A DNA stretch of 64,000 bases from Crassostrea angulata (lineage: Eukaryota), in the NCBI RefSeq assembly GCF_025612915.1, contig NC_069115.1:25791757-25855756 (forward strand), read 5' to 3'. Positions 3,777 through 58,299 of the stretch are shown here, in pieces. Within the stretch, counting starts at the first letter, position 1. The number at the start of each line of letters is the position of its first letter. The notes beneath the pieces are model-generated. The model was not told the origin of the DNA. It did not search any database and saw only the letters and a list, made by a program, of their open reading frames with translations. The position numbers were made by a program, and so were the translations under genes.

Positions 3777-3846
3777 GGATTGGGAACAGGTGATATACGG
3801 AAGATGGCTTACTTTGAACAATCAATTGATCCTCAAAACCTTTCGG
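3777..3846 (+). CDS. MVP: MVP exon, phase-2 start. Encodes xNGGGLGTGDIRKMAYFEQSIDPQNLS, corresponding to human MVP LNKGQDPLADRGEKDTAKSLQPLAP
   Basis: Acceptor tttgtag and donor GTAACT. Reading frame continues into the next exon. Moderate similarity to MVP. Confidence 0.5.
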
Positions 3847-3985
3847 TAACTACAAGGATATTATCAAATGAAAATACATTTTTATGAATACAAGTCATAA
3901 GAACAAATGTAATAGACTAAGTATGATATTTAGGTTTTAACTTTTTTCATTTGATATTCAAGGTAATATTTTTGTTTATTTACAG

Positions 3986-4139
3986 GGAAGAGATAAGACA
4001 AGGGTCGTGACTTACCGTTGCCCATGTAACACAGCTGTACAAGTTTATAATTACCTGGAGAAAACTGCACGAGTGGTGTTTGGTCCTGATCTAATCATAT
4101 TGGGACCACATGAAAATTTTAATGTCCTCAGTCTCAGTG
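3986..4139 (+). CDS. MVP: MVP exon. Encodes [51 protein letters not shown], corresponding to human [50 protein letters not shown]
   Basis: Strong residue-level match to MVP. Acceptor ttatttacag and donor GTAAAT. Exon ends in phase 1. Confidence 0.85.
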
Positions 4140-4267
4140 GTAAATCAGTCAGGTTTCTTTGCAAAACTAATATCTATTGTGGTGTAAATGAAAATTTTCT
4201 TTTAAAGTAAAATTTCAAGGGATTTAAAATCTTCTTAGCCGTACAAATTTGAAAAAATTCATGTTAC

Positions 4268-4312
4268 CACACACACACACACACACACATATATATACAT
4301 ATATATATAAGA
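4268..4312. repeat. (CA)n microsatellite followed by (TA)n
   Basis: Visible directly in the sequence. Confidence 0.95.
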
Positions 4313-4346
4313 AGCACTAGCAAACCAACAACACTCGTTATCTAAA

Positions 4347-5519
4347 GTGTCGGATCAAAAGATACAAGGTTATAAGATGAGATATAAAAAAGCACTAAAA
4401 ATAACCAACGACACGAACAATAAAGTAAAATATTGTCAAATTTTCGGGACAACCCGTCCCTTCTTGGTTGACAACAGAAACAACCTCGATGATTTTATTA
4501 CCTTTGTCAATTCTTTCCATCATTCTATCAAATTTACGACTGAAATTTCCTCATTCAACAACACGTTTCTTGACACTACTTCAACTTTAGTCGATGGTAA
4601 ACTCGATTTCAATCTTCATACTAAACCTACAGATTCCCACCTCTATTTAATGACGTCTAGCTGCCACCCACCTCATACGTTTAGAGGCATACTAAAAGGC
4701 CTAGCCACCAGAGTCAGACGTATTTGTTCAACTCAAGAACTATACTCTGAGCAAAGTCAACTCCTAAAATCCCACTTATGTGCCAGGGGCTACAGCTTGC
4801 ACTCTGTACAGAATGCAATTGATGATTTAGCTAAAGAGGATCGTTTATCCCTTCTGAAATATAAACCCAAAAACGAAGACAACAAGGTCCCATTTGTCAC
4901 TACTTACCACCCTGTCCTTAGGGGCCTAAATGCAGTCCTAAAGAAGAACCTACCAATCCTTTACAGTAATGATAAAATGGTTGAGGTTTTCAAAAACCCC
5001 CCGATGGCAGCTTTCAAGCGCCCTAGAAACCTTAAGGACATGGTGGTAAGAACCAAACTAAAGAACCCTCTGCCTAATGGTGGCTTTAGAACTTGTTCTG
5101 ACACCAGATGTCTGTTGTGCAAACACAGCTCTGATGCAGACGACTTCTCTAGCCCCATTACTGGCCGTACTTACAAAATTTTCGCAAATACTTCTTGTCG
5201 TACGGACAATTGTGTATATCTTATCAATTGTAAATTTTGTCACAAACAATACGTAGGGGAAACAGGAGACCTCCGCAGGCGCATCAATAATCATCGTTCC
5301 ACCATCAAAACTAAGAAAATTAAAGAACCCGTCGGGGAACATTTTAATTTAGATGATCACAAATGGGAGGACATGATGGTTTTGGTCATTGATCACAACC
5401 CTAACTGGACAGATGCGGAGAGAAAAAATAAAGAAAAATTTTGGATGCATAGACTGAAGTCATTCCGCCCTGACGGCATTAACAAATTAAGTGACTTCAC
5501 CAAAATGAACATCAACTAA
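4347..5519 (+). CDS. PLE ORF: RT C-terminal remnant plus linker plus GIY-YIG endonuclease
   Basis: GIY-YIG motifs and CCHH-like finger, as described for the PLE above. Confidence 0.7.
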
Positions 5520-5989
5520 GTACTGATTTGTTTTCGTAGCAATATCACCATCTTCATCTTTTTCGGTCCATGTACAAACTATTAATCATGTTATTTATTC
5601 AAATTATTAGCTATTTCCTTAATCGGTTTTGTTCTTTTGCTTTATTTCACTTCCATTAGTTTTTACATTCATGATTATTTATGTGGTCTTTTACAGGGCC
5701 AATCTTCCCTACAAACTTTCACTACGAATTATCTTAATAGTACAACTTAATTAACAGCAACCCCCAATTAGCAAGTTAATTCGTTCGCGTTATCTTTCAG
5801 CACTTCTTCACAGACCGTCCGCTGCGTCGGACGGGATTTTTCTTTCTCGGGCTCGTATTCTTAAATATAAAGATGTAGCTGCCACGTGTTGATCCGGTGT
5901 TTAAACATTATCTAGTTTTTATATATTATTTAGTTTAGTTTAGTGCTAGTTTTGTAGATGTTTTTCTTCTTTCTTATGTAGTTTTTATT

Positions 5990-6073
5990 TTGTTGTCCTG
6001 AAGAAGGGACGGGTTGTCCCGAAAATTTGACAATATTTTACTTTATTGTTCGTGTCGTTGGTTATTTTTAGTG

Positions 6074-6084
<11 letters not shown>
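5990..6084 (-). repeat. Inverted copy of the PLE 5' region (4378-4475)
   Basis: The reverse complement of 6001-6080 equals 4384-4463 apart from a 2-nt indel. Confidence 0.85.

Positions 6085-6142
<58 letters not shown>
6078..6142. repeat. (TA)32 microsatellite
   Basis: Visible directly in the sequence. Confidence 0.95.
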
Positions 6143-6144
<2 letters not shown>

Positions 6145-10310: not shown

Positions 10311-10390
10311 CTGGTAAACCAAAAAGATCCAATTCATTGAAAACCCTTTGTCTTATGTTGGGACCTGACTTCATAACAGATATTTTAGAG
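10311..10390 (+). CDS. MVP: MVP exon. Encodes AGKPKRSNSLKTLCLMLGPDFITDILE, corresponding to human [29 protein letters not shown]
   Basis: Acceptor ttcattttag and donor GTACAT. Phase is consistent with the upstream exon. Confidence 0.8.
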
Positions 10391-10541: not shown

Positions 10542-10601
10542 GTGGAAACATCAGACCATGCACGTTTAAGAATACAAGTGGCATTTAACAATCATTTTGA
10601 G
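10542..10601 (+). CDS. MVP: MVP exon. Encodes VETSDHARLRIQVAFNNHFE, corresponding to human [20 protein letters not shown]
   Basis: Acceptor tgttatgcag and donor GTAGTT. Exon is exactly 20 codons. Confidence 0.8.
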
Positions 10602-16199: not shown

Positions 16200-19100
16200 A
16201 ACATTTCTTTAAAAGGAATTCTTTGTTTCTGTACTGTTTACCGACAACCTTACATTTACAGGTTTGAAAACATCATTCTCAAATATTGTAATATCAACAC
16301 CGTGTGAGAATGGATCGGTCTTGGACATTCTCAACCTCAGGACAAAACAATTACATCCAAAGCTAACATCAAAATTTTTTTTGAAAATGTACAGAGTTTG
16401 CTTTTTTACAAGTAATTTCACCACATCTAAGAAACCCGAAAAAAAGGCACAGGAGAACATACATTTCAACATCAGATCTAGAAATGGAGAAAAAGCTCCA
16501 TTGTCAAGTTCATGCCACAGTTGTTTCAATATACTGGCAATAATTAGGTAATCTGTTGTTAGAGACATTGTTTTGAGACTTTTTCACCCCTCGCAAAACA
16601 TACTGTAGCTGGTTAAAGTTATTCATAAAATCTCCATGACCTGCTCTAATATAGTAAAACCATTACTAAATAACCTGCTAAATACAATTTGATAGTGTCA
16701 TACTTGAGTTTTAAAACAGATTTACAATGAGTGACAAAATACATTTTAAGCAAAGTTTCATTTACTATTGGAAGACAGTAGGATTAAAACACAATTCCAC
16801 TCATAGAAATGAATGTCAGAAAACATTGTAACGCTGAACTGTAGGCCCTCTTGGTTGAACTGCTTAAGGATGCATCCCATAATTGGTTTAACTGCTCCCT
16901 CAGTCCTTCATTAGCTGCGAATGTTCCAGGCATTGTGTTGGCATCAGGTCGGCTTCTGGTGCCAGGGTTCGAAACTTCTACATCTGGTACGAGAGAGAGA
17001 GTCAGCAATAGTGTTCTTGACGCCATCAATATGAACAGCATGAATGATATAATGGTTACAGGCTGCATGAAAGGTTTAAGTTCTCATTAGTTTCATTATG
17101 CTTTTAACTTTTGAGCATCCTTTCCTAATAATGTCAACAGTTGTTTGGTTGTCACAATGAAAAAGAATGAGTTTCCTTGGCCAAGTATCACCCCACAGAA
17201 GACAGGCCATAACGATAGGATATAGCTCAAAAAGAACCATCGATGTGTTTTCCTTGGAAATGTTGTCAGGGAAATCTCCTTGAAACCACTTATTTTGGTA
17301 AAAGCCTCCAAAGGATGTAAGGGTTGCGTCTGTAAACAACTGCATATCCGCAGCCTCTGTCATGTTATCGTCGATGAAAAAGGACACTCCATTCCAGCTT
17401 TTTAAGAAATCTGACCACATAGCAAGGTTGTCCCTACACATACTGTCTAAGTGGACATGGAAATGAAGCGGCTCCTCTGTGGTTGATGAGGCTATCAGGT
17501 GAGAAATGAAAGATCGACCTGGCAGAACAACTCTGCAAGCAAAATTGAGGTGTCCCAGCAAATTGAGCAATTCTCTCTTTGTACATGATTTGCGTGTTTT
17601 GAAGGAATTACCGATAGATAAGATATGATCAATCTTCTCCGACAGTAAATGGGCTTCCATGTTCCAGGAGTCTAATATTATCCCAAGGTATTCTAGTTCT
17701 GTACAAGGTCCTTTGGTTTTCTTCTCCGATAGAGGAATCCCGAGGGTTCTAAATACCAGTATCCCCAGGAGTCTCTCCATCACTTTATGAGCATCATCAA
17801 ATAGTGGGACCACAACTAGGAAGTCATCCAACAGGTGCAGCACATTTGGTATGATATCTTGTATTTTTTCTCTGCAATCCAACACACAGCGGAAGACAGG
17901 GCATCAAAGATCTTTGGACTTGATCTGCTTCCAAAGACAAGGCGCTTGAAAAAATAGTATTTATCATCCCACTTAATTCCATGATATGGCCATAACTCTT
18001 ATGATATAGGCATGATATTGAAGGCATCAGTAATGTCGGTTTTAATAAGTGATGCTCCTTTCCCGCATAATTTAATTATAGTCTAATAGCATAATGGACC
18101 ATACAAGTAACCTAGGTTTAGTTCTTAGTTTACGATCTCTGTAACGCTGTCCGAGTTTAATGAAGCTGACTTTAGATTTTTGCATTCCAGAGAATTCTTT
18201 GGAAGATCCTGAAAGCCAGTATGAAAGCCAAAACGTAAACCATTCATAAGATATTCTGTAAATTGGGTGTCGGGATGATGTTGTAGAAGATTTTGAAGAC
18301 TGTCTATGTTGATGGGAGTTGTTACTTATTATCGAAACTGGATGTTACATCTTTTTGAAAGCCCCATTTGTGTGGGGCTGCTGGGATTTTTTGAGCTGCA
18401 ATTGTGTTAAGAGTGGTCTCCTCTGCAACTGATGCAGATGTGGGCGTTCTTGCATCTAGGTATGTGACAGCCTCTGAAGCCATTGAAGTTGTTACATATT
18501 TCTCTACCTTCATGAAATTCTCTCCGACGTCCATAAAAATCCATGTCCCCATTTCTCTTATCCCTAACTTTGTCGGTAATAGGGCAAAAGCCTGTAGAGT
18601 GCAGCGTACTGTTGCAGGTTGCACATGACTGCGGTCTGGCATTCGCAAACAAATTACAAAATAAAGTGTTATTCCACACAGACTAGTCAATGAGAATGTT
18701 ATTATACTTAAGATGTGAAGCGGCCATAAGACTGAATTGACGATGATATTCGTAGAACCCATTGCCTGTGTAGCCGGTAGCCATGTCAATGATATCCCTA
18801 TCATACAAATCTAACTCCTGTCTTCTTTGGGGATATGCTTGACACATTATATTTTTGTAAATTCCGAAAGCTTGAATGAACTCACCGATGTTTAGCAACT
18901 TCTGCAGTCGTTTATCCGGCTTCTTGTCATCTTTTTCGTCAGGGGGAGAGAAATATGGTATTAACAAGGATGCTAAATTGACATCCTTACCTGATGTAAT
19001 TTGGAGGCACAGATGAGGCGAGATGGTCTCTACCAGAAGGAGAGATTCTGCTGCGAATCCGAATCTCGTCCTCTTCAATTCCGGGCCCTGTGTTGGCAAT

Positions 19101-19480
19101 CCTGCAGCTGCCACGGAAATAGGGCAAAGGCCGTGTCCAGTGTGAAAGAAGACTAGGGATTCATTGTGGTTGTAGTTGAATTCGCCGGAGTTTGGCTTCC
19201 TTGTTCATCATTATTCCTTGCAGTCGACGATGGATGTATAGCAGTTGCATGCAACGAGTTCACTCGTGATGTAAGATGTACTACATTTTGTTGCAGCGAC
19301 TGCACTGTTGAAGATAATTTCGACTCGAGATCGATTACCGTATTTTTCCGACGATTAGTCGGTATTTTTTTCATCTGAAGCAGAGCACCCGACTTATCGT
19401 CTTGTTCGACTTGTCGTAGGCTCGTAGTCAGAAATTTTTTAAAAATAGCATTAAAAATCTTGGTTTTAATCATCTTGAGT
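16200..19480 (-). mobile_element. Degenerate DIRS-like retroelement of the tyrosine-recombinase class
   Basis: The ORF at 17076-17885 carries the RT motif LLDDFLVV, then YLGIILDS, then an RNase H segment (FTDATLTSFGG ... HCDNQTTVDIIRKG). The ORF at 16784-17068 carries a tyrosine-recombinase N-terminal motif (STKRAYSSALQCFLTF). A Gag-like ORF lies at 18683-19114, and a Cys/His knuckle (CKNAHICISCRGDH) lies at 18407-18679. The element is fragmented by frameshifts. Confidence 0.55.
17076..17885 (-). pseudogene. RT plus RNase H fragment of DIRS-like element 1
   Basis: RT and RNase H motifs as listed for the element above. Confidence 0.55.
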
Positions 19481-20711
19481 TGGCTGTGTGATTGAAAATT
19501 ACGTTGTTGAATTCACTGTTCATCTTTAATAATTATCATTTTCACTCATCTGTCAACACTTAAATACATAATAATAACAACAGTTATTAAAAAATATTAC
19601 ATTGTCGTTTATCAATTAAAAGTTTTACCGTTCCGTTTTTATAAACACATCGTCACATGGTTCTATGTATCACTAGTAGGAAGATAACATTGCGCAGTAA
19701 AATTGAAACCAAGTTTGAATGGAAGAAAATATTGCAGTAGGTCCGGGGGATGTTTTTTTAAATTTAATTATTTTATTTGTAAAGAGTTGTTAGTGGAAAG
19801 TATAAATCAGAAATATTTAATGGTCAAATTCAATCTTAAAATACGTAATCGGCAATTATCAATACTACTGTTTATACAATAGGCTGACACCGGTTGTGTT
19901 AATAATTTTGCCTTAAGGCTGAGATCTTTACGGCAATTTCACTACCTGTGTATATAAAGAGTACCGTTATAAGAGTGATTATAGTTCATTGATTATTTAT
20001 TGTCCAATTCTTTGATTATTGTTAGATAATTTTTTTAGGAAACGTATGTATGTCGTATATCGTCATTATCAAGTCGTACAAATGATCGATCTATTTCTAA
20101 CAGTGTCTATGTAAAACAATAGCGTGTAACTGCATTACTGGATACAAAGAAAACAAGTTTCATCAAATCATAGTAATTGCTAAGCTTTCTGCACTTGAGA
20201 TCCCCCTTTGAAGTCCGACACGAGACAGGTGCATGCCTATGACACCGGAAATTGTTAAACAAACATTGACCACGCGCCGAGTCAACAGGTGGCTGGTTAC
20301 GTAATGGCGAATACACTGGCGATAGTCAGAGTGGATACTTATTTTAATGCTTGGGAATAAAATATTTCTGACAAAGTAAGTTAAGTTTTGCATAACACGC
20401 GATATCGGGAATTGTTTAAAATGCAAGCGACTTTGTAGAAGTTGCCGGTATTTGAAAATTTGATGCATAAGTATAAAGCGTAATTGTTTAAATGTTAATC
20501 ATTAATAATAATTGGTAGCAATATCGGTGACATCGTGGCATCATACACTGATAATGTTACTGCAGTTTTATAGGCCATTTTGAAGTGATAAGATCGACGT
20601 ATGGTCTGAGATCGACGTATCATAGGATTTTGTTAAAATTTTGGCTAAAAATGGGCAATTCGACGAGTCGTCCGCATCGACGAGTCGTCGGGAAAATACG
20701 GTAGTACACTG

Positions 20712-20830
20712 TGATCGCCATTGTTGTTTTGGTGTAGGGCATCACGGGATTGCCTATCATTCGAGTCGCCATTGATGTTTTGGTGTGAAGGATCATGGGA
20801 ACGCGCACTATCATTCGAAGTTCTTTTTAT
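20712..20830. repeat. Tandem roughly 60 bp repeat of two copies. Short tandem motifs lie nearby (gatcgacgtat x2 and cgacgagtcgtc x2).
   Basis: cgccattg.tgttttggtgta....atca.ggga......a.tatcattcgag appears twice. Confidence 0.6.
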
Positions 20831-21586
20831 AGAACTCTCTGTACATACCAACTAACGCCGATCTTCGTGCGTTAGAGGAGTATGCGATTCCGCGAGAATC
20901 CAAAGCTTCCTTTAGTCTTGCTGCCGTCCAATTCACTGGCAAGTCTGGATTGTATGGCGCGGGTCGGGACGCTCTTTTAGGCCCCATGACTTCTTGTAAG
21001 CACAAAACTCAGTTCACAAAGTATCTCATAAGTTACGTAGTTATGTACCTCGGCAAATACACACTTACTGCATTAATCCATAATAGCACACCAGTACAAA
21101 TAGTAAAGGTAGGAGTAGATTTGAATGAAAATAATAGCTTCTTAATCAAGCATCTTCACAATTGCTTCTTCTTCTAAACAATCAACATAAATACCAGACT
21201 CCCCCCTGTAGGTATCAATCCCCTGATTACTCTTATCTAATGCATGTTATTAGTACATTGTAACACTGACCAACTTTGTAGATAGAAATATTGCCCAACA
21301 ACAGGCTAAGCATGTAATTTGATCCACGCAGCTATAATTGTTAAATCACAGATTTTGCGGACTTAAAAAAACAATAGTCAGAATGACATTTTTTTCATAT
21401 CATGGAAGAACAACGTGGTCTATCTCGCGGGCTGATTTGATTGACAGGGATAGCACGTGGACCCTGACTGCATATATTCTATCACAATTTTAGGGAAAAG
21501 GGTTCAATATAATGGAAACTATAAATCTAATCTAACTTATTACACTGAATTACAAGTAAAATGTACTTAAATTAAACTCATACTGG

Positions 21587-21592
<6 letters not shown>

Positions 21593-21632
<40 letters not shown>
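21593..21632. repeat. (CT)20 microsatellite
   Basis: Visible directly in the sequence. Confidence 0.95.
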
Positions 21633-21635
<3 letters not shown>

Positions 21636-21959
21636 ATGACGATCATTAAACAATCAAACAGTAATTATTGCAATACTGAGTAGTTTCTTGGAACACAAAT
21701 AATTTCTAAACTCAAGTTGCTATAAAGATGAAATAAAAAAATTATCAAGTACCGATCCACGGATTCTAAGCGCTATGAATATGTACCGTGCGGTACTACA
21801 TGGACAAGTACATCACACATATGTATAAAAGAAAGAAAATTTGAAAATATATTAGATATAAAGCTGTATAATTATATTATTTAGAGAAAGTACATTTGTT
21901 TTCAACAACCCATTAAATTTGTTATCGTTGAATAGAGTATAAGTGAGAAAAGATCACAG

Positions 21960-24900
21960 TTATGGTTCTATGCACTATTAAAACTGCCAAACAACAGCAA
22001 CTACGATTACTACTACGTTTAAAACGGACTGAAACAAAAACTTCTGGAACCATTTATTTAAATTTTAAAAAAGGAAAAGAAAGTGTTAGTGTTTTAATTG
22101 ATCAAACCTTTCCAGGTACTCCCCTGGAAGAGTTATTTCCCTCTCCAAACACCATTGCCAAATCTGACTTGCAAGACTTATCAACTTCTTTGATTTTGTA
22201 CCCCCAATGTTGTTTATGTATGCTATCGCTACTTTGTTGTGCGATTGCAATAGTGCGTGCTTTTTTAAAATTTTCGACTGAAAACAATGAATTGCTAAAA
22301 ATGCTGCTTTGAGCTCTAACTCGTTTATGTGCTGATCTCTTTCGTTTTCCATCCAAAGACCGCCCGTTTTTGTATTTTGACAAATTGCACCTCAACCTCT
22401 CAGGCTTGCATCTGATTTGACAATAATGTTTGGTTGGGGACGGACTAAAGCTCTCCCGTTCCATTTGCTTAGTTTTGAAGACCACCATATTAGTTCTTGT
22501 TTCGAATCCTCGTCTAATTGTACATGATGCTCGTAATTCCCTCCGGTATGCAGGGCTCTTGTTTTTAATAACTTGAGACTACTGTAATGAAGAGGTGAGG
22601 GTAGAACCCCTTGATTTGTAGCTGTCAGACGTCCTATTATTAGGGCCCCGCAAGGATTTGCGGGTGCCCTATAGTAATCACTCTGTCCGTCCGTCCTTCT
22701 GTCCGTCCGTCCGTCTGTCACTCTTCCGTCCACAAATTTCCTGTTTTTTTCTAATAACTTTTTTTATGGTTGCCCAATCAAGTTCAAATTTGGTATGGTA
22801 GTTCAGTAGGCAGAAATACATATTTTGATGCTAAGTTTGGTTCTCTATGTCTTCTGGTTTGGAGCTGGGGTGGTGGGGTAGATTCATAACTATGCATAAG
22901 AAGAATGGGCAAAGAGAGATAACTGCTGAGAATGAATGGGCAAAGAGAGATAACTGCTGAGAATGTTACCATTGTATACATGGAAGGCTGTGCAATATTT
23001 GTCCTTTGGGATTAATTAACCTTCCACAGGAAGAAAATCCTAAGCTTTATCTTTATCTGTCACATTGAGATTAATTACTGCACTGCCTGTGTCTGCAAAT
23101 GAACTTTGTTTTGAAGTTAAGGTCAATTTTGAATGATGTGTAGTATTGTGTACATTCTTTGAAATATGGATTTGAAATATAATATTCATATTTTTGGGGG
23201 TTAAAATACCGTACACAATGATTTATGATAGTTTTATTGAATAGAGGCAAAGCCTAGGTATCATTGCATTGGTATCAATTCTTTGTTTTTTTAACAAATT
23301 TTATTTCATCCCATGTTAACCCACTTTATCCCGTGGATATGACTCATTGGATATTTTTTTGATATTCCAGAGTTGTGACTTTACAATGGGATTTGCCTAG
23401 GCATAATGAAGTAAAAATAATGTAGAGTTTTATAAACAGTGTAAACATTGATTGCGGTGTATAAAATATGGGATAAATAGAATCTCATGATTTGTAGTAT
23501 AATATGATTTTTATCCAACTTGTGTGTTTTATCCCCTCACTAAGGCTCAAGAAAAAAACACTTTAATTGTTGGATGAAAATCATATCCAACTACAAATCA
23601 CGAGATCCTATATATTCCAGTTCTTTACATCTTCTGCCGGGCATTTATTTTTCATCATTGTTAATATAAAGAGGATGGAATTCAAAGTTTTTTTCACTTC
23701 TCTATATTAATTGTCATAGCGGGGCCCTTCCTGACTGGTCAGTTTTCTAGTTTGGGCTAGATCCCGAGCAGAGACAGACTGACGACTCACAAGATCTAAG
23801 CAATTCTGCTTTATCTTTATCACCTTTTCTTTTGGGAGAGAGAGGGTCATTGTTTCTGAGTTTACAGTGAATCCCAGAAATTCAGTTACATGTGAAGGGA
23901 CTAGAACTAACTTTTCCTGATTGATCAAAAACCCTAGATTCTCTAAGAGATAGACAGCTGTTGACAGATCTGATTGAATGCCTGTGAGAGGTAAACACAC
24001 GTGGTGCTATTGCAATTCCAAATGGAAGGGATGTATTAAACTCCATTATTTTGTTTTTCCAAAAAAATTTCAGAAATTTTCGAAATTTCTCTGCCACGTT
24101 TATTGTCAGGTACGCATCTTTTAAATCTAGTTTTACTAACCAATCTCCCTCTTCCATGAGATCTCTTAACAGCTGTATCCCCTCCATTTTGAAATGCTCG
24201 TAAGGGAGAAAACTGTTCAGATTTTTTAGATTTATTACAGGCCTTAACTCGCCCCCCTTCTTCATTACCAAAAATACGTTGCTGTAAAAGGAATCGCTTG
24301 TGGGAGTTGTCTCCCGTACCGCATTTTTCAACACTTAATTCTCTATTTCGGAATCTATCAAAATCTGTTTCTCTGATTTGAATTTCGATGGAATCGGAAT
24401 TTTTCCCTTGAAAGGATTTGATAATATGGGAATTTCTATCCCTTTGATTGATTGAAGGATCCAAGGATCCCGTGTAATTACTTTCCAATTCTGATAGAAA
24501 TGTTTTACACGTCCCCCAACTGGCACTGACTGGGGAATTTCTACAGCATTGAAAAACAGGAATTTTGATAGATTCCGATCGATCTCTGATAATTCTACCC
24601 GTTTTAGACTCACCTGATTCACTGAGTGACTGATTTCTTGGGAGGTACTGTATATTTCTGGTTTGCTCCCTGACCCTTGAATTGTGGGTACTTTGTGTAT
24701 CTCTGATTCTGAGTGAACTGCCTCCTGTCTGTCTGTCTGCGACCCCCATACTGGAGGCTTGATGAGGGTCTCTGTAGAAAAAACTGGCGGTTTCTGTCAG
24801 AAAACTGTCTTGTTTGTGACCAAACTTTCTTATCACTGCCATTAAACAATAGCTGTTTTAATTCTTTATTATCTTTGTTATCTTTCGCTAATTGTTTAAG

Positions 24901-25900
24901 AAAATGTTTCCCAAATAAATCACTTTTACATTTTCCCAATGATTTCTTGTACCTTTTTTCAGAAAGCACATCTACAGATTCTGGCATTGTTTTAGCTAAC
25001 ACTGCCTTACACCTATTAGTAATGAAAAGGAAATGGGCATTCCCTACAAACATAATCGCTCTTTGGACAAACTGAATAACATCAGAGGGGTCCATGCCCT
25101 TGCCTGTTTTGCTTATTCGCTCTGCCTCGCTCCTATAACAGAAAGTGGCCCTAAAGCATCTAAAATTCTCATCTGGGTATTTACTTTATTTTTCTCTAAC
25201 TTTCCATTCCATTTTTTACCCTTGAAAAATATTTTCTTGAAAAATATGTCCAAAGACAAGCCCTGAAGCTTTTTAGAATGAGGTATGGGACAAATCTTAG
25301 CAATAGCCTGTCTGTTCTTTTTGTTAATCCCTTTTGTTGCGTACGTAGTGACAAATTTCAGAATCTTTTTAGGGATTTTTGGCTTATAATTTGTGCTCTC
25401 AGAACATTAGAATAAATCAGAGTCCGAGTCAGACTCGGAACTAGAGCTTGAGGAGGAGCTAGAGGAGCTAGAACTAGAGGGACTTGAACTTGAGCTTGAA
25501 TCAGTTGATGTTTTGCTTTTCTTGCGTTTTCTAGAGCTTGAGCGTGTTCTAATAGAAACATCGCCGGACTTACTTTTTTCATTCCGAATTTGCTCTGACG
25601 ACCACTGCCGCCTTAAATCATCCTCTGTCTTATCAGCCACAGATACATGGTCTACTTCACATTGAGAGTCCTCTGACTCATCTACCTTTGTATTATCGCT
25701 CTCAACCGCCTCTGCGGGTGAGCTTTCTCTTTCGTCATGAGCCGGCGTAGCCTGTCCAGGCCCCGGCGAACGAAGTTGGGCATTAGCACTCCGAACACGT
25801 AAACATGTGTACACACTTGGCGAGCTGAATTGAAAGTCATCGATTGTATCTATCGAACGGTTAGGGTTTACCTGGGGCATGCGCATCAGGGGTTTCATAC
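21960..25900 (-). mobile_element. Degenerate DIRS-like (or LTR-type) retroelement 2, disrupted by a nested insertion at about 22641-23724
   Basis: RT motifs KLDLKDAY, LPFGIAIAPRVFT and FLGFTVNSETMTLSLPKEK at 23707-24334. RNase H motifs IVKSDASLRG and ELKAAFLAIHCF at 22086-22733. Gag-like and Ser-rich ORFs at 24619-25898. Multiple frameshifts. Confidence 0.55.
22641..23724. mobile_element. Nested non-autonomous element inside DIRS-like element 2. It carries a (GTCC)n microsatellite and has termini GGGCCCCGC and GCGGGGCCC.
   Basis: It interrupts the continuity of the RT and RNase H reading frames. The 9-bp GC-rich termini are inverted copies of each other. The (GTCC)n tract at 22681-22720 resembles the microsatellite module of the family A and family C elements. 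Confidence 0.35.
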
Positions 25901-28095: not shown

Positions 28096-28177
28096 TTTTT
28101 TGCAGTATGACTTAAATGGAACAGAAGAAGAAAAAAGCAAGCTGTTTTCTGTCCCTGATTTTATTGGATTTGCTTGC
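28096..28177 (+). CDS. MVP: MVP exon. Encodes [27 protein letters not shown], corresponding to human [28 protein letters not shown]
   Basis: Acceptor tttttttgcag and donor GTAAAT. Exon ends in phase 1. Confidence 0.8.
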
Positions 28178-37537: not shown

Positions 37538-37680
37538 GAGCTAGGATCCGAGCTGCTGTAGCTCAGGTAATGTTTGATGATTTCCATAGACATTCCAACC
37601 AAATACTTATCACTGCAGTGTTTGGCATGAATGAAAAAGGTCAAATAAACAAGGAGGTCAGATTCAAGGAAAATAACCTG
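37538..37680 (+). CDS. MVP: MVP exon. Encodes GARIRAAVAQVMFDDFHRHSNQILITAVFGMNEKGQINKEVRFKENNL, corresponding to human [28 protein letters not shown]
   Basis: Acceptor ctactttcag and donor GTATGT. Phase is consistent with the 28177 exon. Confidence 0.85.
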
Positions 37681-38127: not shown

Positions 38128-39901
38128 CCCTCTTTAAAAGGGAGATAATTGAGAATTATTGAAAATTTGTTGGTACTTTTCAAAAATCTTCTTTTAAAAA
38201 ACTATTCGGCCTGAAAAGCTTAAACTTGTGTGGAGGCATCCTCAGGTAGTGTACATTCAAGTTTGTTCAAATCATGGTCCCAGGGGGTAGGGAAGGGCTA
38301 CAAGAGGGGGATCAAGTTTTACATAGGAATATATAGACAAAATCTTTAAAAATCTTCTTTTCAAAAACTATTTGGCCAGAAAAGCTCAAAGTAAAGTGGA
38401 AGCATCCTCAGATAGTGAAGATTCAAGTTTGTTCAAATCATGGTCCCCAGGGGTAGGGTGGGGCCACAATTAGGGGATCAAGTTTTACATAGGAATATAT
38501 AGAGAAAATCTTTAAAAATCTTCTTCTCAAAAATTATTAGGCCAGAAAAGCTCAAATTAAAGTGGAAGCATCCTCAGGTAGTGTAGATTCAAGTTTGTTC
38601 AAATCATGGTCCCCGGGGATATGGTGGGGCCACAATGGGGGAATGGATTTTTACATAGGAATATATAGAGAAAATCTTCTTCTCAAAAACTATTCAAATT
38701 AAAATGAAAGCATCTTCAGGTAGTGTAGATTCAAGTTTGTTCAGATCATTGTGCCTGGGGGTAGGGTGGGGCCACAATAGGGGGGATCAATTAAGTTTTA
38801 CATAGGAATATATAGAGGAAATCTTTAAAAATCTTCTTCTCAAAAACTTTTAGGTCAGCAAAGCTCAAATTTGAGTGGAAGCATGGATTTTTACATAGGA
38901 ATATATAGAGAAAATCTTCTTCTCAAAAACTATTCAAATTAAAATGAAAGCATCTTCAGATAGTATAGATTCAAGTTTGTTCAAATCATTGTCCCTAGGG
39001 GTAGGGTGGGGCCACAATTAGGGGATAAAGTTTTATACAACAATATATAGAGAAAATCTTTAAAAATAATTCTTTTAAAAATTATTTGCCCAAGAAAGCT
39101 CAAATTGGCGTGTAACCATCCTCAGATAATGTAGTTTCAAGTCTGTTCAAATCATGGTCCCTGGGGGTAGGGCGGGGCCACAATGGGGGATAAATTTTTA
39201 TAAATATAGAAAATCTTTAAAAATCTTCTCAAAACTATTAGGCCAGGAAAGCCCAAATTTGAGTGGAAGCATCCCCAGATCGTATAGATTCAAGTTTGTT
39301 TAAATAATAGTCCAGGGGTATGGTGAGACCACAATGGGGGATGAATTTTTACATAGGAATATATAGAGAAAATCTTTAAAAATCTTCTTTTTAAAGACTA
39401 TTTGGCCAGAAAAGCTCAACTTGTGTAGAGGCATCCTCGGGTAGTGTAAATTCAAGTTTGTAAAATCACAGTCCCTAGTGATAGGGCGGGGCCGTGATGG
39501 CGGTTTGAATTTTTACATAGGAATATATAGAAAAAATCTTTAAAAATATTCTGTGAAAGTTTTCGGTCCAAAACTCAGTATTTAGTGTGAAAGCACAGGT
39601 TATGCAAATTTAAGTTTAATGAAACCATTATTCCCTAGAGAAAAGTGGGACCACGAAATGGAGGTGGGGGGGGGGGGTATATAGGAATAGAGAAAAATCT
39701 TCTTACAGGTACAACAACAAAAGGGGCTTGGTATTTACCCAAAAAAAAAAGAGGTTGATAAAAATTGGCAGATTTTCATTTTTTTTTTTAGCAAGATCTT
39801 AGTACTTAGTTGTCAAGATATTTTGATTCTGTAATGCTAATTTGATTAGAATTAAGGCAATTGTTGCTCAGGTGAGCGATGTGGCCCCTGGGCCTCTTGT
39901 T
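37935..39901 (+). mobile_element. Family A composite element: head, about 10 monomers, tail
   Basis: Same head (37935) and tail (39860-39901) as the 12875 copy. The terminal monomer variants are shared with the copies at 12875 and 56215. Confidence 0.7.
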
Positions 39902-42402: not shown

Positions 42403-42507
42403 ATTTTAAGCAGCATGGACATTCAGAGTATAGAACCAGTGGATGCCAAGATGAGAGACAGCCTCAGTAAATCTGTGCAACTGGCAATAGAGATATCCAC
42501 TAAGTAT
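42403..42507 (+). CDS. MVP: MVP exon. Encodes [34 protein letters not shown], corresponding to human [38 protein letters not shown]. The 3' boundary is uncertain.
   Basis: Acceptor ttctcag. Three candidate donors exist: GTATGT at 42504 (phase 2), GTCAAA at 42508 (phase 0) and GTAAAT at 42526 (phase 0). A phase-0 donor is needed for the next exon. Confidence 0.7.
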
Positions 42508-45155: not shown

Positions 45156-46613
45156 TCAGTTAGAAAATTTAACATATTTTTTACTAATTTTAAATCTGCC
45201 ACATTCAAAGTCATCAACTACTCTTGGTAAAAGTTTGTTGAAGTAAAAACAACATAGTCTTGAAATAGCTGCTTCACAAAACTGTTGGTCATATTGTACA
45301 TCAATGACCTTGTATTCATTAGTTGTCCAAATAACAAGTTTGCACAGCTGCATATGTGTTACATGCAAAGTTAACTGCATTTGAAGGTAATAGCCCCTTG
45401 AACTGTTATGCTTAAAATATAATGTACCATTTTGCAAGGATTTCACAACATCATATTTACCAATTGTAAATAAGCTGTCAAGTGTTTGATCATTCTTAAG
45501 TATTGGACATTTAATTTCCAAAAGACATTTTGAACCATCAGCATTGGTTACTATTCCATCTGGGGAAACACTTAGCCAGGGCTCTTCACCTTCTTGTCCA
45601 TGTCTAGTAAATTTGTTTGATGTGAAGGAAGGGTACATATGTTCTCTTAAGAAGTTATCACTATTTGTAGTGTCACGAACGGGAACCTTGTGGTGCTCAG
45701 TACTGCCAGTTATTCTTATTTTTCTACTGTTGTGCCACAATTCAGATTCACTTTGTGAAATTGTTGCCATCGATAACGATTGAATTTGGGCATCATTAAG
45801 TTTAATGTACATGTACCTGTTATAAAACGCACAACACTTTTCACAAGATAGTTCACCTGTATGCTCAGTACGAGGCTCGGATGAAGATTCGAAAAGAGAT
45901 TTGTTTATATTTGCGTGCATAGATTTACTTAAAAGTGAATTTTCTAAAAGAAATAATTCTTTAAGTTCTGAGTTTTCCACAAAATATTTAAAAGATTGAT
46001 ATGATACAAACATTGGGAAGATAGATTTTGTATTTTGTGGTTTTTCAGTATTGTTGTTAACCTCACTGCCATATTTAGGTTTTTTAAAGTCCATCTCTTC
46101 AAGAACACCTGGTTCAAGGTTTCTTGTCGCACCCTTATTCCACTGCATCTGCTCATCTGTACAAGATTTTCCCGTAAAACCTAACCTTACAGCATGCTCA
46201 ATTTTCCACAAAAGTGCGCCTACATGACTGCACGTTTTACTGTTCCCAGCCATACATGAACATCCCCCGTTTAGAATTGTGCCGATCATATCACAGAATA
46301 CCCATGCATTGTGAAACTCTGAATTTATTTTTTGTGACGGGCGCACTTCAGATTTCAGAATAACTGTATTGTGAATAACAAAATGAAGAATTTTCCCGAC
46401 AGAACCGCTTTTAAAATAATTGTAACTGTCCAATGATTTGTAATTTTTCATTTTTTCGCCGTCACATGCTCTACTTAAAATCAAATAATTGTAGATATCG
46501 CCATATTCTACTTGTGGCCACTCACGAATGTCATCCTTCCATTCACCGGTTTTGACGTCTTTTTGGGAAGAAATCATTCGATCAGTATCTTTTTTGCATT
46601 GACTCTTATCCAT
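45156..46613 (-). CDS. Intronless 485-aa ORF encoding a SWIM-type zinc finger plus a YqaJ/lambda-exonuclease-like PD-(D/E)xK nuclease
   Basis: SWIM signature CSCMAGNSKTCSHVGALLW (CxCxnCxH). YqaJ-type motifs ITGSTEHH, WLSVSPDGIV and KCLLEIKCP (motif ExK). ATG at 46611-46613 and stop at 45156. No internal stop codons over 1458 nt in an AT-rich region. TTTATT on the + strand at about 44930 would be the minus-strand poly(A) signal. Confidence 0.7.
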   Translation of the reverse strand: MDKSQCKKDTDRMISSQKDVKTGEWKDDIREWPQVEYGDIYNYLILSRACDGEKMKNYKSLDSYNYFKSGSVGKILHFVIHNTVILKSEVRPSQKINSEFHNAWVFCDMIGTILNGGCSCMAGNSKTCSHVGALLWKIEHAVRLGFTGKSCTDEQMQWNKGATRNLEPGVLEEMDFKKPKYGSEVNNNTEKPQNTKSIFPMFVSYQSFKYFVENSELKELFLLENSLLSKSMHANINKSLFESSSEPRTEHTGELSCEKCCAFYNRYMYIKLNDAQIQSLSMATISQSESELWHNSRKIRITGSTEHHKVPVRDTTNSDNFLREHMYPSFTSNKFTRHGQEGEEPWLSVSPDGIVTNADGSKCLLEIKCPILKNDQTLDSLFTIGKYDVVKSLQNGTLYFKHNSSRGYYLQMQLTLHVTHMQLCKLVIWTTNEYKVIDVQYDQQFCEAAISRLCCFYFNKLLPRVVDDFECGRFKISKKYVKFSN

Positions 46614-53511: not shown

Positions 53512-53762
53512 TTCTATACTTATTCTATTTCTCCCAAATGGTATTTTATCAGCATAAATATTATAAGGAACTTCTTTCGTATGTTTATTTGAAGCTGATG
53601 ACTGATTTAGCATATCCCAGTAAAGCAAATAACTGATGATATCTGATTATGGTTTGGAATGGATATACGTAACAAAAGTGTCAACAAAAAAATTAAGAGA
53701 TTTATGTATTAAGAAAATAATAGAGAGCATCAATTATGTTTTGATATTAAAGTTCAATAGAG

Positions 53763-53979
53763 GCAGCAGCATCGCATGAGGCAGCCAGAAATGAACAAAT
53801 AGCCAGGGGTGAATTGGAGAGGCAAAAACTCTATAATGAAAAAGAATCTGAAAAAGAACGATGTAAACTCTTGGAACTTCAAGCCGTCACTGCTGCAGTG
53901 GAGTCTTCTGGACAGGCTAAAGCAGAGGCCCAAGCTCAGGCCGAGCGCATTATCATTGAGTGTGAGAGCGAGATTGAAG
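53763..53979 (+). CDS. MVP: MVP exon. Encodes [72 protein letters not shown], corresponding to human [68 protein letters not shown]
   Basis: The acceptor AG is ambiguous between 53759-60 and 53761-62. The donor is G|GTGAGT, giving phase 1. Strong match to the coiled-coil region of MVP. Confidence 0.8.
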
Positions 53980-54183: not shown

Positions 54184-54248
54184 CTGCAAAACTGAGGGCA
54201 GAAGCAGCAGGAATAGAGCATAATGCTCAGTTAACCACACAGGAAGCG
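54184..54248 (+). CDS. MVP: MVP exon. Encodes AKLRAEAAGIEHNAQLTTQEA, corresponding to human AKLKAQALAIETEAELQRVQK
   Basis: Acceptor cttttatag and donor GTGCGT. Phase 1 entering the exon, phase 0 leaving it. Confidence 0.75.
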
Positions 54249-55715: not shown

Positions 55716-55796
55716 CTACGAAAACAAGAACTAGATTATGCGAGAAATATGAACAGACTAGAAATTCATAAGGAAAGGGAAATGACAAATATTGAG
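55716..55796 (+). CDS. MVP: MVP exon. Encodes LRKQELDYARNMNRLEIHKEREMTNIE, corresponding to human [27 protein letters not shown]
   Basis: Acceptor tgttctacag and donor GTTTGA. Exon is 27 codons. Confidence 0.75.
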
Positions 55797-56015
55797 GTTT
55801 GAATAAATAAGTAAAAATAGAGCAAGATAAATTTCATATATTTTTCAATCTTCAATTTGTAATCAATTGTATTAGAAGGTTTTGAGGAATAAAGTGCAGA
55901 AAACAATTACACGGAATTATTATGTATATTCCAAATAACATTTTGTGACAACTTAATTCCTTTAAACCATGGTCATGAAACAATAACGAAGGTACAACAA
56001 ATTCATTTAATATAG

Positions 56016-56096
56016 GTAAAGAAGTTTAAGGATATGATTTCAACTATAGGAGGAAATGTATTGGCTGCCATTGCAACTGCAGGTCCAGCAAATCAG
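56016..56096 (+). CDS. MVP: MVP exon. Encodes VKKFKDMISTIGGNVLAAIATAGPANQ, corresponding to human [27 protein letters not shown]
   Basis: Acceptor ttaatatag and donor GTAAAA. Exon is 27 codons. Confidence 0.85.
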
Positions 56097-56214
56097 GTAA
56101 AAATGATTATAATTTTTTCATTTCTCTGGAGTTTTCAGAACCATAAGAAGCATTAAAGCTAAACAACATTACACTGTACATTAGAAGTATATATATTTAA
56201 GGTAATGCCATTTA

Positions 56215-56231
56215 TTAGGTCACCTGAGCCA

Positions 56232-56263
<32 letters not shown>

Positions 56264-56291
56264 GTCCGATGTCTGTCGTTGTCGTCATCGT

Positions 56292-56322
<31 letters not shown>

Positions 56323-57758
56323 AAGAACCGCTGGGCAAATTTCAACCAAATTTGGCACAAAGCACCACTAGGTAAAGGGGATTCCAGTTTGTTTAAATGA
56401 AGGGCCACGGAAAATTATTGAAAATTTGTTGGTATTTTTCAAAAATCTTCTTCTCAAAAACTATTCGGCCTGAAAAGCTTAAACTTGTGTGGAGGCATTC
56501 TCAGGTAGTGTAGATTCAAATTTGTTCAAATCATGGTCACCGCGGGTAGGGAGGGGCCACAGGGGAGGGTCAAGTTTTACATATGAATATATAGAGAAAA
56601 TCTTTTAAAAATCTTCTTCTCAAAAACTATTAGGCCAGGAAAGCTCAAATTAAAATGGAAGCATCTTCAGGTAGTGTAGATTCAAGTTTGTTCAAATCAT
56701 GGTCTCTGTGGGTAGGGTGGGGCCACAATAGGGGGGATCAAGTTTAACATAGGAATTTATAGAGGAAATCTTTAAAAATCTTCTTCTCAAAAACTATTAG
56801 GCCAGGAAAGCTTATATTTGAGTGGAAGCATCCTCAGATAGTGTAGTTTTAAGTTTGTTACAATCATGGTCACCGGGGGTAGCGTGGGGACACAATTGGG
56901 GGATCAAGTTTTACATAGGAATATTTAGAGGAAATCTTTAAAAATCTTTTTCTCAAAAACAAGAAAGCTCAAATTGGCGTGTAACCATCCTCAGATAATG
57001 TAGATTCAAGTCTGTTCAAATCATGGTACCTGGGGGTAGGGCGGGGCCACAATGGGGGATAGTTTTTATACATAGAGAAAATCTTTAAAAATCTTCTATT
57101 AGGCCAGGAAAGCCCACATTTGAGTTGAAGCATCCCCAGATCGTATAGATTCAAGTTTGTTTAAATAACAGTCCAGGGGTACAGTAAGGCCACAATGGGG
57201 GATGAATTTTTACATAGATATATAGAGAAAATCTTTAAAAATCTTCTTTTTAAAGACTATTTGGCCAGAAAAGCTTAAACTTGTGTAGAGGCATCCTCGG
57301 GTAGTGTAAATTCAAGTGTGCAAAATCAGTCCCTAGTGATAGGGCAGGGCTTTGATGGCGGTTTGAACTTTTACATAGGAATATATAGAGAAAATCTTTA
57401 AAAATATTCTGGGAAAGTTTTCGGTCCAAAACTCAGTACTTAGTGTGAAAGCACAGGTTATGCAGATTTAAGTTTGATGAAACCATGATTCCTTAGAGAA
57501 AAGTGGGGCCACGAAATTTTGGAGGGGGGGGGGGGGTACATAGGAATAGAGAAAAATCTTCTTACAGGTAGAATAACAAAAGGGGCTTGGTATTTACCAA
57601 AAAAAAAAGAGGTTGATAAAAATTGGCAGATTTTCAATTTGTTTTAGTAAGATATACTGTACTTAGTTGTCAAGATATTTTGATACTGAAATGCTAATTT
57701 GATTTAGAATTAAGGCAATTGTTGCTCAGGTGAGCTATGTGGCCCCTGGGCCTCTTGT
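56215..57758 (+). mobile_element. Family A composite element (head, about 7 monomers, tail) inside the last MVP intron
   Basis: Head is taggtcacctgagccaaaggctcaagtgagc. Tail ends ggcccctgggcctcttgtt at 57758. Confidence 0.7.
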
Positions 57759-57926
57759 TTTTATAATTATTTTAAACACCATGTAAACTTGAAAAAGAAT
57801 CAGACTCCCATTACAAATGCTGTTCATGTAAACTCATCATGGAAAAGCATTTATTACAGACATAAACTGAAATGTGTGTTAATCACTTCTGCAAAATTGT
57901 GTTTGAAATAACAATTATTTTTTTAG

Positions 57927-58034
57927 GTAAATATGTTGAAAGCCCTTGGATTGGAGAGCGTTCTGATCACTGATGGCAACAGCCCTGTCAATCTGTTTGA
58001 CACAGCCAGTGGTCTTGTAGGACAAAATCAGTAA
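57927..58034 (+). CDS. MVP: MVP terminal coding exon. Encodes [35 protein letters not shown] followed by a stop, corresponding to human [32 protein letters not shown]
   Basis: Acceptor tattttttttag. TAA stop codon at 58032-58034. Strong match to the MVP C-terminus. Confidence 0.9.
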
Positions 58035-58293
58035 ACTCTCCCAGGAGTTATCCAAAAATAATTTGTTTCTTTGACACCAATTTTGTTTTGTAAGAGTGTT
58101 GAATGAAACATTATAATGATTTCTTAGTATTAACTTTCAAGTGTGTTTTTGTAAGTGTATCTTGATGTTTTTCACTCTCTTTAATTAGTTAACCAACTTT
58201 GCCATTTGCAATTGTGAGATTATTACGTATATTTGAATTACATAACCAAGAAATATAATTTTCAGAATAATTTATTCTATACATTCTCGTTTA

Positions 58294-58299
58294 AATAAA
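58294..58299 (+). other. AATAAA polyadenylation signal, the likely end of the MVP 3' UTR
   Basis: First AATAAA after the stop codon, about 260 nt downstream. Confidence 0.4.

What the first reader, a model, noticed from the sequence alone, without database searches (positions are those of the whole stretch)
3777..58299. The C-terminal third of the major vault protein gene is spread over at least 54 kb with repeat-filled introns
Twelve exons reconstruct a continuous MVP C-terminal sequence of about 335 aa, from the DPQNLS...RVVTYR segment through the terminal [23 protein letters not shown] plus stop. All junctions have canonical GT-AG splice sites and consistent phases. Introns reach 17.5 kb (10602-28095) and 11.2 kb (42508-53762). 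They contain the DIRS-like elements, the SWIM/YqaJ locus and several satellite carriers. The exon ending near 42507 has an ambiguous donor. The 5' two-thirds of the gene lie upstream of the window.
Basis: partly seen in the sequence, partly recalled or inferred. Interest (0 to 1): 0.5.

Follow-up and report, generated by a model that had tools for sequence, protein, structure and literature searches.

The report
Vault-protein paralogue gene with bloated introns
The window holds the intact 3' half (12 exons, 419 codons) of a bivalve-type major-vault-protein gene stretched over 54 kb by transposon- and satellite-filled introns, which is an ordinary eukaryotic gene structure; the only mildly notable point is that it is the divergent second MVP paralogue, not the canonical one.

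Summary
Twelve + strand exons (3767-58034), all with AG/GT boundaries and consistent phases, splice into a stop-free 419-aa sequence. It aligns without a break to human MVP residues 447-851 (E=1.4e-132) and hits Pfam Vault_3 and MVP_shoulder.

- The window holds about the C-terminal half of the protein (419 aa), not a third (~335 aa).
- Exon A starts at 3767.
- The 17.5-kb intron ends at 28105.
- The ambiguous junction is donor 42503|42504 with acceptor 53752|53753.

All 11 intron positions and phases recur in the annotated orthologues of the clam Mactra or the crinoid Anneissia. There the same gene part spans only 13.3 kb and 4.7 kb.

The introns carry reverse-transcriptase remnants, a GIY-YIG ORF, a YqaJ ORF and many blocks of a ~166-bp satellite.

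The gene is not the canonical MVP. It belongs to a divergent clade (bivalves, crinoid, hemichordate, sponges, a cnidarian) that coexists with canonical MVP in the same species, with 100% bootstrap for the split.

Verdict: an ordinary, apparently functional gene. Interest is low, with a modest evolutionary side-note.

The parts
3767..3845 (+). Exon A (79 nt). Its first base completes a split codon. It encodes NGGGLGTGDIRKMAYFEQSIDPQNLS, the clade-specific loop motif.
   Evidence: AG at 3765-3766 and GT at 3846-3847. tblastn to Mactra LLRNGGGTGSGDIRKIAYFEQSVDPQFL. The phase-2 intron before it is shared with Mactra and Anneissia.
3986..4139 (+). Exon B (154 nt): [51 protein letters not shown]. 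This is most of the last vault repeat (Pfam Vault_3).
   Evidence: phase-0 intron before it and phase-1 intron after it, both shared.
10311..10390 (+). Exon C (80 nt): AGKPKRSNSLKTLCLMLGPDFITDILE.
10542..10601 (+). Exon D (60 nt): VETSDHARLRIQVAFNNHFE, the start of the shoulder domain.
28106..28187 (+). Exon E (82 nt): YDLNGTEEEKSKLFSVPDFIGFACKRM. It follows the 17,504-nt intron.
   Evidence: It is the only in-frame acceptor in 28060-28125. The intron position is shared.
37538..37680 (+). Exon F (143 nt): GARIRAAVAQVMFDDFHRHSNQILITAVFGMNEKGQINKEVRFKENNL.
42403..42503 (+). Exon G (101 nt): [33 protein letters not shown], ending with two bases (AA) of a split Asn codon.
   Evidence: Three frame-preserving donor/acceptor pairs exist. 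Only 42504/53753 gives the conserved EIST-x-S-[IV]-E-A-x-A and the phase-2 intron shared with Mactra and Anneissia.
53753..53979 (+). Exon H (227 nt): (N)[15 protein letters not shown]...[12 protein letters not shown], the start of the cap-helix region. It follows the 11,249-nt intron.
54184..54248 (+). Exon I (65 nt): AAKLRAEAAGIEHNAQLTTQEA.
   Evidence: flanking introns shared with Mactra.
55716..55796 (+). Exon J (81 nt): LRKQELDYARNMNRLEIHKEREMTNIE.
   Evidence: the intron after it is shared with Anneissia and absent in Mactra.
56016..56096 (+). Exon K (81 nt): VKKFKDMISTIGGNVLAAIATAGPANQ.
   Evidence: the intron after it is shared with Anneissia and absent in Mactra.
57927..58034 (+). Exon L, coding part (108 nt including the TAA stop at 58032-58034): [35 protein letters not shown], the cap-ring region.
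58035..58299 (+). Probable 3' UTR up to the first AATAAA (58294-58299). Inferred only.
   Evidence: No transcript data are available.
16212..25898 (-). Degraded retroelement remnants inside the 17.5-kb intron, antisense to the gene. They include reverse-transcriptase fragments and, by eye, RNase H-like and tyrosine-recombinase-like pieces.
   Evidence: RVT_1 hit for 23882-24334, E=5.8e-8, and for further translated pieces. Motifs read by eye. Pfam gives no recombinase hit.
4347..5519 (+). 390-aa ORF with a GIY-YIG nuclease domain in intron 2. Probably part of a mobile element.
   Evidence: PF01541, E=6.6e-8.
45156..46613 (-). 485-aa ORF with a YqaJ-like recombinase/exonuclease domain in intron 7, antisense to the gene.
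   Evidence: PF09588, E=3.7e-6. No SWIM hit.
38182..39552 (+). Largest intragenic array of the ~166-bp satellite family (intron 6). Further + strand blocks lie at 2713-2987, 7541-8817, 9872-9998, 11699-11866, 13064-13314, 26567-26645, 28527-29087, 36809-37266, 40494-40914 and 56441-57399.
   Evidence: TRF. blastn with one monomer.

Best explanation
Window 3767-58299 (+ strand) is the 3' half of an intact, probably expressed protein-coding gene of the major vault protein family, from a bivalve-like mollusc genome. The major (GT-AG) spliceosome would join twelve small exons (60-227 nt, 1,261 nt in total) across 53 kb of introns.

The introns have been inflated by mobile-element insertions: retroelement remnants, GIY-YIG and YqaJ ORFs, and dispersed ~166-bp satellite arrays of the kind carried by non-autonomous Helitron/Helentron elements in bivalves.

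The encoded 419 residues comprise:
- a conserved Gly-rich loop motif;
- the last vault repeat;
- the shoulder domain;
- the long cap-helix;
- the cap-ring.

In rat and human MVP these are the parts that bundle 39 chains into each half-vault cap.

The gene is the divergent 'type 2' MVP paralogue, which coexists with canonical MVP in several invertebrates.

Shown here: the exon structure, its homology, its intactness, its conserved intron positions and its paralogue assignment.

Inferred: expression, assembly into vault particles (alone or mixed with canonical MVP), and the 3' UTR end.
For: - Exon model with AG/GT at every junction, consistent phases and no stop codon.
- One continuous alignment to human MVP 447-851, E=1.4e-132.
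- Pfam Vault_3 E=2.6e-31 and MVP_shoulder E=2.3e-43, the latter covering the full profile 1-118/118.
- Best relatives are an uninterrupted Logan contig at 72%, Mactra antiquata at 69% and Mytilus at 67%.
- The 568-aa CDS of Logan contig L002 is colinear across all junctions.
- Each of the 11 intron positions and phases is shared with the annotated Mactra gene, the Anneissia gene, or both.
- pN is 0.19-0.22 against saturated pS of 0.75-0.80, indicating long-term purifying selection.
- No exon base is repeated elsewhere in the window, whereas at least 29% of intron bases are.
- Mobile-element domains occur in the introns and satellite blocks are scattered through them.
- Paralogue assignment: type 1 and type 2 proteins are both present in Mactra, Mya, Mytilus, Anneissia and Saccoglossus, and the T1/T2 split has 100% bootstrap.
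Against: - There are no transcript data for the source species, so expression, the exact UTRs and alternative splicing are untested.
- The N-terminal half is outside the window, so the gene's completeness is unknown.
- Synonymous sites are saturated against the available relatives, so a very recent loss of function cannot be excluded.
- The tree is neighbour-joining on 409 columns and has no non-metazoan outgroup.
Confidence: 0.87

Rival explanations
1. It is the canonical, single-copy MVP orthologue of this species.
For: It has the same domain order as human MVP and 53-55% identity to it and to canonical invertebrate MVPs.
Against: - Canonical MVPs are 75-82% identical across phyla. This protein is only about 55% identical to them but 68-72% identical to type 2 proteins.
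- Five species carry both types.
- The T1/T2 split has 100% bootstrap, with the window inside T2.
- The window carries the type 2 motifs GGGxGxxDIRKMAYFE and YRCPxNTAVQ.
Confidence: 0.03
2. It is a decaying or unexpressed paralogue (an unprocessed pseudogene) whose exons merely still look intact.
For: The introns are greatly expanded and full of mobile DNA. There are no expression data. The type 2 clade evolves faster than type 1.
Against: - There is no stop or frameshift in 419 codons spread over 12 exons, and every splice site is canonical.
- The 66 columns invariant across the 25 type 1 and type 2 proteins aligned are, by construction, also matched in the window protein.
- pN is far below pS.
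- Orthologues in related bivalves are annotated, and one relative appears as an uninterrupted coding contig.
Confidence: 0.07
3. The 54-kb span is partly an assembly artefact: repeats were collapsed, expanded or mis-joined inside the introns, so the true gene is shorter or differently arranged.
For: The introns are rich in satellite arrays and dispersed repeats, which are hard to assemble.
Against: All 12 exons occur once each, in the right order and orientation, with nothing duplicated or missing. Large introns are ordinary in repeat-rich mollusc genomes (general knowledge).
Confidence: 0.05

Closest known systems
Human and rat major vault protein (PDB 11dr, 4V60, 4HL8 and others)
   Same: Same domain order for the part present: last vault repeat, shoulder, cap-helix, cap-ring. 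The alignment to residues 447-851 is continuous at E=1.4e-132, including the ITDG..P.NLF.TA.GL C-terminal signature.
   Different: Identity is only about 53%. The loop before the last repeat (human ...KGQDPLADRGEKDTAKSLQPLAP) is replaced by a conserved GGGxGxxDIRKMAYFEQSxDP motif. There is a 10-residue deletion in a shoulder loop. The protein ends soon after the cap-ring, without the vertebrate C-terminal tail.
Mactra antiquata ACF0H5_008614 (P0002) and the other 'type 2' MVP-like proteins: Mytilus P0024, Mya P0065, Anneissia P0003, Saccoglossus P0004, Amphimedon P0005, Geodia P0007 and P0009, Nematostella P0006
   Same: They form the same clade (100% bootstrap) and share the same motifs. Identity is 58-72%. 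Nine of 11 intron positions and phases are shared with Mactra, and nine of 11 with Anneissia.
   Different: The same gene part spans 13.3 kb in Mactra and 4.7 kb in Anneissia, against 54.3 kb here. Mactra lacks the last two introns. Anneissia has one extra intron and one at a different position.
Multi-paralogue vault systems: Trypanosoma brucei MVP1-3 and Dictyostelium MvpA/B
   Same: They have divergent MVP paralogues coexisting in one genome. In trypanosomes all three are built into one shell (PMC12547018).
   Different: Those duplications are lineage-specific to protists. Whether the metazoan type 2 protein co-assembles with type 1 is untested.

Membership tests
Major vault protein family (Pfam Vault repeats plus MVP_shoulder) | At least one vault repeat domain | tested here: met
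   PF17795 Vault_3, E=2.6e-31, residues 33-94, full profile 1-62/62.
Major vault protein family (Pfam Vault repeats plus MVP_shoulder) | Shoulder domain following the repeats | tested here: met
   PF11978 MVP_shoulder, E=2.3e-43, residues 95-213, profile 1-118/118.
Major vault protein family (Pfam Vault repeats plus MVP_shoulder) | Long cap-helix region and cap-ring at the C-terminus | tested here: met
   Gap-free sequence alignment of residues 221-417 to human MVP 655-851.
Major vault protein family (Pfam Vault repeats plus MVP_shoulder) | N-terminal stack of vault repeats R1-R8 | not testable with these tools
   These exons lie upstream of the window. tblastn with 120 homologues finds no MVP exon in 1-3766.
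Major vault protein family (Pfam Vault repeats plus MVP_shoulder) | Assembly into 39-fold half-vault particles | not testable with these tools
   This needs purification or electron microscopy.
Canonical (type 1) metazoan MVP orthologue group | Clusters with vertebrate and canonical invertebrate MVPs, with about 75-82% identity across phyla | tested here: not met
   53-56% identity to type 1 proteins. The window lies on the other side of a split with 100% bootstrap.
Divergent (type 2) metazoan MVP-like clade | Clusters with Mactra P0002, Anneissia P0003 and Amphimedon P0005, and carries the GGGxGxxDIRKMAYFE and YRCPxNTAVQ motifs | tested here: met
   Tree. Motifs and alignment. The window has the variant [10 protein letters not shown].
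Pseudogene | In-frame stops, frameshifts, lost splice sites or missing exons | tested here: not met
   None is found in 12 exons and 419 codons. Expression was not tested.

The most novel reading that the evidence does not exclude
Non-vertebrate animals carry a second, ancient MVP paralogue that the searched literature does not describe, and the window's gene belongs to it. This paralogue is present alongside canonical MVP in bivalves, crinoids and hemichordates, and is also found in sponges and a cnidarian. It was not found among the vertebrate sequences returned. It evolves about twice as fast as canonical MVP, and a conserved GGGxGxxDIRKMAYFE motif replaces the loop found at that point in canonical MVP. 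It could form mixed vault shells, as in trypanosomes, or a distinct particle. A 2024 paper in the library still states that most eukaryotes have a single MVP (PMC11219742).
Probability: 0.4. Interest if true: 0.4.

Novelty: new member of a known kind. Interest (0 to 1): 0.15.

Why it matters
As a gene-structure finding it matters little. It provides a clean, homology-validated exon model for half of an MVP-family gene in a genome that appears unannotated, since the best database match is 72%. It also illustrates how mobile DNA can stretch a gene 4- to 12-fold relative to its orthologues without touching exon positions.

The side-result may be more useful. The two-paralogue picture of animal MVPs could explain the confusing 'MVP-like' annotations. 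It also gives vault biologists an easy test in invertebrates: do the two proteins share one shell?

Tried and rejected
- tblastn with a recalled human MVP sequence and then with 120 database homologues found no further MVP exons upstream (1-3766), downstream, or on the - strand. Only chance-level hits appeared.
- Alternative splice choices were enumerated for the G/H junction.
- Pfam scans of the other intronic ORFs of 100 aa or more gave nothing.
- Pfam gave no tyrosine recombinase and no SWIM domain, so 'DIRS-like' and 'SWIM' remain unverified.
- Rfam at gathering thresholds and a tRNA scan found nothing in the window, including no vault RNA.
- Locus look-ups for Mytilus P0024 and Nematostella P0006 found no record.
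- The source species could not be identified. No protein more than 72% identical exists in the searched collection.
Full report
**1. Checking the observation.**

tblastn with a recalled human MVP sequence gave a colinear series of + strand hits from 3980 to 58022.

I read each hit in context and built an explicit model of 12 exons:

| Exon | Coordinates |
|---|---|
| A | 3767-3845 |
| B | 3986-4139 |
| C | 10311-10390 |
| D | 10542-10601 |
| E | 28106-28187 |
| F | 37538-37680 |
| G | 42403-42503 |
| H | 53753-53979 |
| I | 54184-54248 |
| J | 55716-55796 |
| K | 56016-56096 |
| L | 57927-58034 |

Every exon is preceded by AG and followed by GT, and the phases are consistent. The 1,261 exon bases translate into 419 residues plus a stop, with no internal stop. 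The intron sizes in nt are 140, 6,171, 151, 17,504, 9,350, 4,722, 11,249, 204, 1,467, 219 and 1,830, which total 53,007.

**2. The match is far beyond chance.**

- phmmer against PDB sequences aligns residues 23-417 to human MVP 447-851 in a single stretch at E=1.4e-132. The only gaps are two short ones (3 and 7 residues) in one shoulder loop.
- Pfam gives Vault_3 (residues 33-94, E=2.6e-31) and MVP_shoulder (residues 95-213, complete profile, E=2.3e-43).

The window therefore encodes the last vault repeat, the shoulder, the cap-helix and the cap-ring. That is about the C-terminal half of an MVP of roughly 850 aa, not a third and not about 335 aa.

**3. Validating the exon boundaries without transcripts.**

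The best database relatives are a 3.4-kb Logan contig with an uninterrupted 568-aa CDS (P0001, 72%), Mactra antiquata (P0002, 69%) and Mytilus galloprovincialis (P0024, 67%).

I fetched the annotated Mactra locus (L001) and the locus of the crinoid Anneissia japonica (L003). I reconstructed their exact exon/intron structures and projected the introns onto a protein alignment.

- All 11 window introns coincide in position and phase with an intron of Mactra (9 of 11) or Anneissia (9 of 11).
- The phase-2 intron just before exon A is present in both. This fixes the start of exon A at 3767, not 3777.
- The two 3'-most introns (J/K and K/L) are absent from Mactra but present in the crinoid. They are therefore ancestral and were lost in Mactra.

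**4. The 'ambiguous donor'.**

Enumerating all GT donors in 42480-42535 and all AG acceptors in 53735-53775 leaves three frame-preserving, stop-free pairs: 42504/53753, 42508/53763 and 42526/53763.

Only the first yields ...[15 protein letters not shown].... The close homologues aligned have EI[ST]T-x-S-[IV]-E-A-x-A at this point, and human MVP has EITTNSQEAAAKHEA. Both Mactra and Anneissia have a phase-2 intron exactly there. The intron is therefore 42504-53752.

**5. Intactness and constraint.**

There is no stop or frameshift. The 66 columns invariant across the 25 type 1 and type 2 MVPs aligned are, by construction, also matched in the window protein. Against the Logan CDS and the Mactra CDS, pN is 0.19-0.22 while pS is 0.75-0.80, which is saturated.

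This argues for long-term purifying selection. It cannot exclude a very recent inactivation. The 3' UTR end is inferred only.

**6. What fills the introns.**

- No exon base is repeated elsewhere in the window. At least 29% of intron bases are, with intron 6 at 70% and intron 11 at 85%. This is a lower bound, since only within-window repeats are counted.
- A ~166-bp tandem-repeat family forms arrays in introns 2, 6 and 11 and a >4-kb array downstream (59.8-64.0 kb). One monomer finds 12 further + strand blocks, the ten between 2713 and 57399 lying upstream of exon A and in introns 2, 4, 5, 6 and 11. It also finds one - strand block from 62935 to 64000, so the downstream array flips orientation near 62,920.
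- The arrays resemble in period and organisation the Cg170/HindIII-type repeats. In the Pacific oyster those are carried by non-autonomous Helentron elements with GTCY-type microsatellites (PMC7492417). A (GTCY)n-like tract occurs at 40134-40330. I did not compare sequences with the published consensus, so this is a lead and not a test.
- Coding remnants:
  - a reverse-transcriptase ORF at 910-2331 (+), upstream of exon A;
  - a GIY-YIG ORF at 4347-5519 (+);
  - reverse-transcriptase fragments on the - strand of the 17.5-kb intron;
  - a 485-aa YqaJ-domain ORF at 45156-46613 (-).
- By eye, the - strand of 16.2-17.1 kb reads like the N-terminal part of a tyrosine recombinase downstream of RT/RNase H-like sequence. 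This would fit a DIRS/Ngaro-type element. Pfam gives no recombinase hit and no SWIM hit.
- Rfam and the tRNA scan found nothing.

**7. Comparison of gene size.**

The part from the exon-A equivalent to the stop codon spans 13.3 kb in Mactra and 4.7 kb in Anneissia, against 54.3 kb here. The exon architecture is conserved and only the introns have grown. This is ordinary behaviour for repeat-rich mollusc genomes (general knowledge).

**8. Which MVP is it?**

The window protein and its closest relatives share motifs absent from vertebrate MVP: GGGxGxxDIRKMAYFE, YRCPxNTAVQ and AFNNHFE.

A search with a canonical bivalve MVP (Potamilus P0019) returned canonical proteins that are 75-82% identical across phyla. 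They include ones from Mactra (P0126), Mya (P0127), Mytilus (P0125, P0170, P0199), Anneissia (P0198) and Saccoglossus (P0213). These species also have a 'type 2' protein (P0002, P0065, P0024, P0003, P0004).

A neighbour-joining tree of 28 sequences over 409 columns separates type 1 from type 2 with 100% bootstrap support from 200 replicates. The window lies inside type 2, next to Mytilus. Both clades contain sponges, cnidarians and bilaterians.

| Comparison | Identity |
|---|---|
| window vs type 2 Mactra | 68.5% |
| window vs type 1 Mactra | 55.5% |
| type 1 Mactra vs type 1 sponge | 79% |
| type 2 Mactra vs type 2 sponge | 58% |

The window gene is therefore the divergent paralogue. The duplication appears to be at least as old as animals. 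The tree is unrooted in effect, because it has no non-metazoan outgroup, so this dating is provisional.

In the searchable literature I found MVP paralogues discussed for kinetoplastids, Dictyostelium and the salmon louse. A 2024 statement says that most eukaryotes have a single MVP (PMC12547018, PMC11219742, PMC3762200). I found no description of this metazoan split. The library is incomplete, however, and databases already label such proteins 'MVP-like'.

**9. How it most likely works.**

- Shown: this is a GT-AG spliced gene whose product has the MVP C-terminal domains.
- From established knowledge of rat and human vault structures: 39 MVP chains per half-vault are held together by their cap-helix and shoulder regions. 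These regions are conserved here.
- Inferred: the protein assembles into vault-like shells, either alone or mixed with the canonical paralogue as in trypanosomes.

**10. Verdict.**

It is an ordinary gene with transposon-inflated introns. Interest is low (0.15). The only element of some novelty is the paralogue assignment.

Noticed in passing
window 3767-58034; proteins P0002/P0126, P0065/P0127, P0003/P0198, P0004/P0213: Animal MVPs fall into two clades separated by 100% bootstrap. One is a slowly evolving canonical type and the other a faster, divergent type. Both are present in the same species of bivalve, crinoid and hemichordate, and each clade contains sponges and cnidarians. The window gene is of the divergent type. 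I found no description of this split in the searched papers.
   Followed up: yes
window 3768-3845 (exon A): In the divergent clade the loop before the last vault repeat carries a motif conserved from sponges to bivalves (GGGxGxxDIRKMAYFEQSxDP). Canonical MVPs have an unrelated DPLADR... stretch there. The motif's function is unknown.
   Followed up: partly
L001 22881-23153 versus window exons J, K, L (55716-58034) and L003 7695-8907: Mactra encodes the last 91 residues on one exon. The window and the crinoid share two phase-0 introns there, so Mactra has lost two ancestral introns at the 3' end.
   Followed up: yes
window 59774-64000: A ~166-bp satellite array of more than 4 kb lies downstream of the gene and switches strand near 62,920 in a head-to-head junction. 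All ten blocks of the same family between 2713 and 57399 (upstream intron and introns 2-11) are in the gene's orientation.
   Followed up: partly
window 40134-40330: A 97-bp unit is duplicated in tandem and ends in a (GTCY)n-like microsatellite. This is reminiscent of the left flank described for oyster Helentron-derived satellite carriers (PMC7492417). It was not compared with a consensus.
   Followed up: no
window 4347-5519 (+): A 390-aa ORF with a GIY-YIG nuclease domain lies in intron 2, on the same strand as the gene. It may be part of a Penelope-like or other mobile element. No reverse-transcriptase hit was found in this ORF.
   Followed up: partly
window 45156-46613 (-) and 46801-47726: A 485-aa intact ORF with a YqaJ-like exonuclease domain lies antisense in intron 7. 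It is immediately flanked by a 464-bp unit repeated twice. Pfam shows no SWIM domain in the ORF.
   Followed up: partly
window 910-2331 (+): A 473-aa ORF with the C-terminal part of a reverse-transcriptase domain lies in the intron upstream of exon A.
   Followed up: partly
L002 2-895 and 837-2543: The related Logan contig carries the MVP reading frame in two overlapping ORFs (297 aa and 568 aa). This suggests a frameshift or an assembly error in that contig, upstream of the part used here.
   Followed up: no
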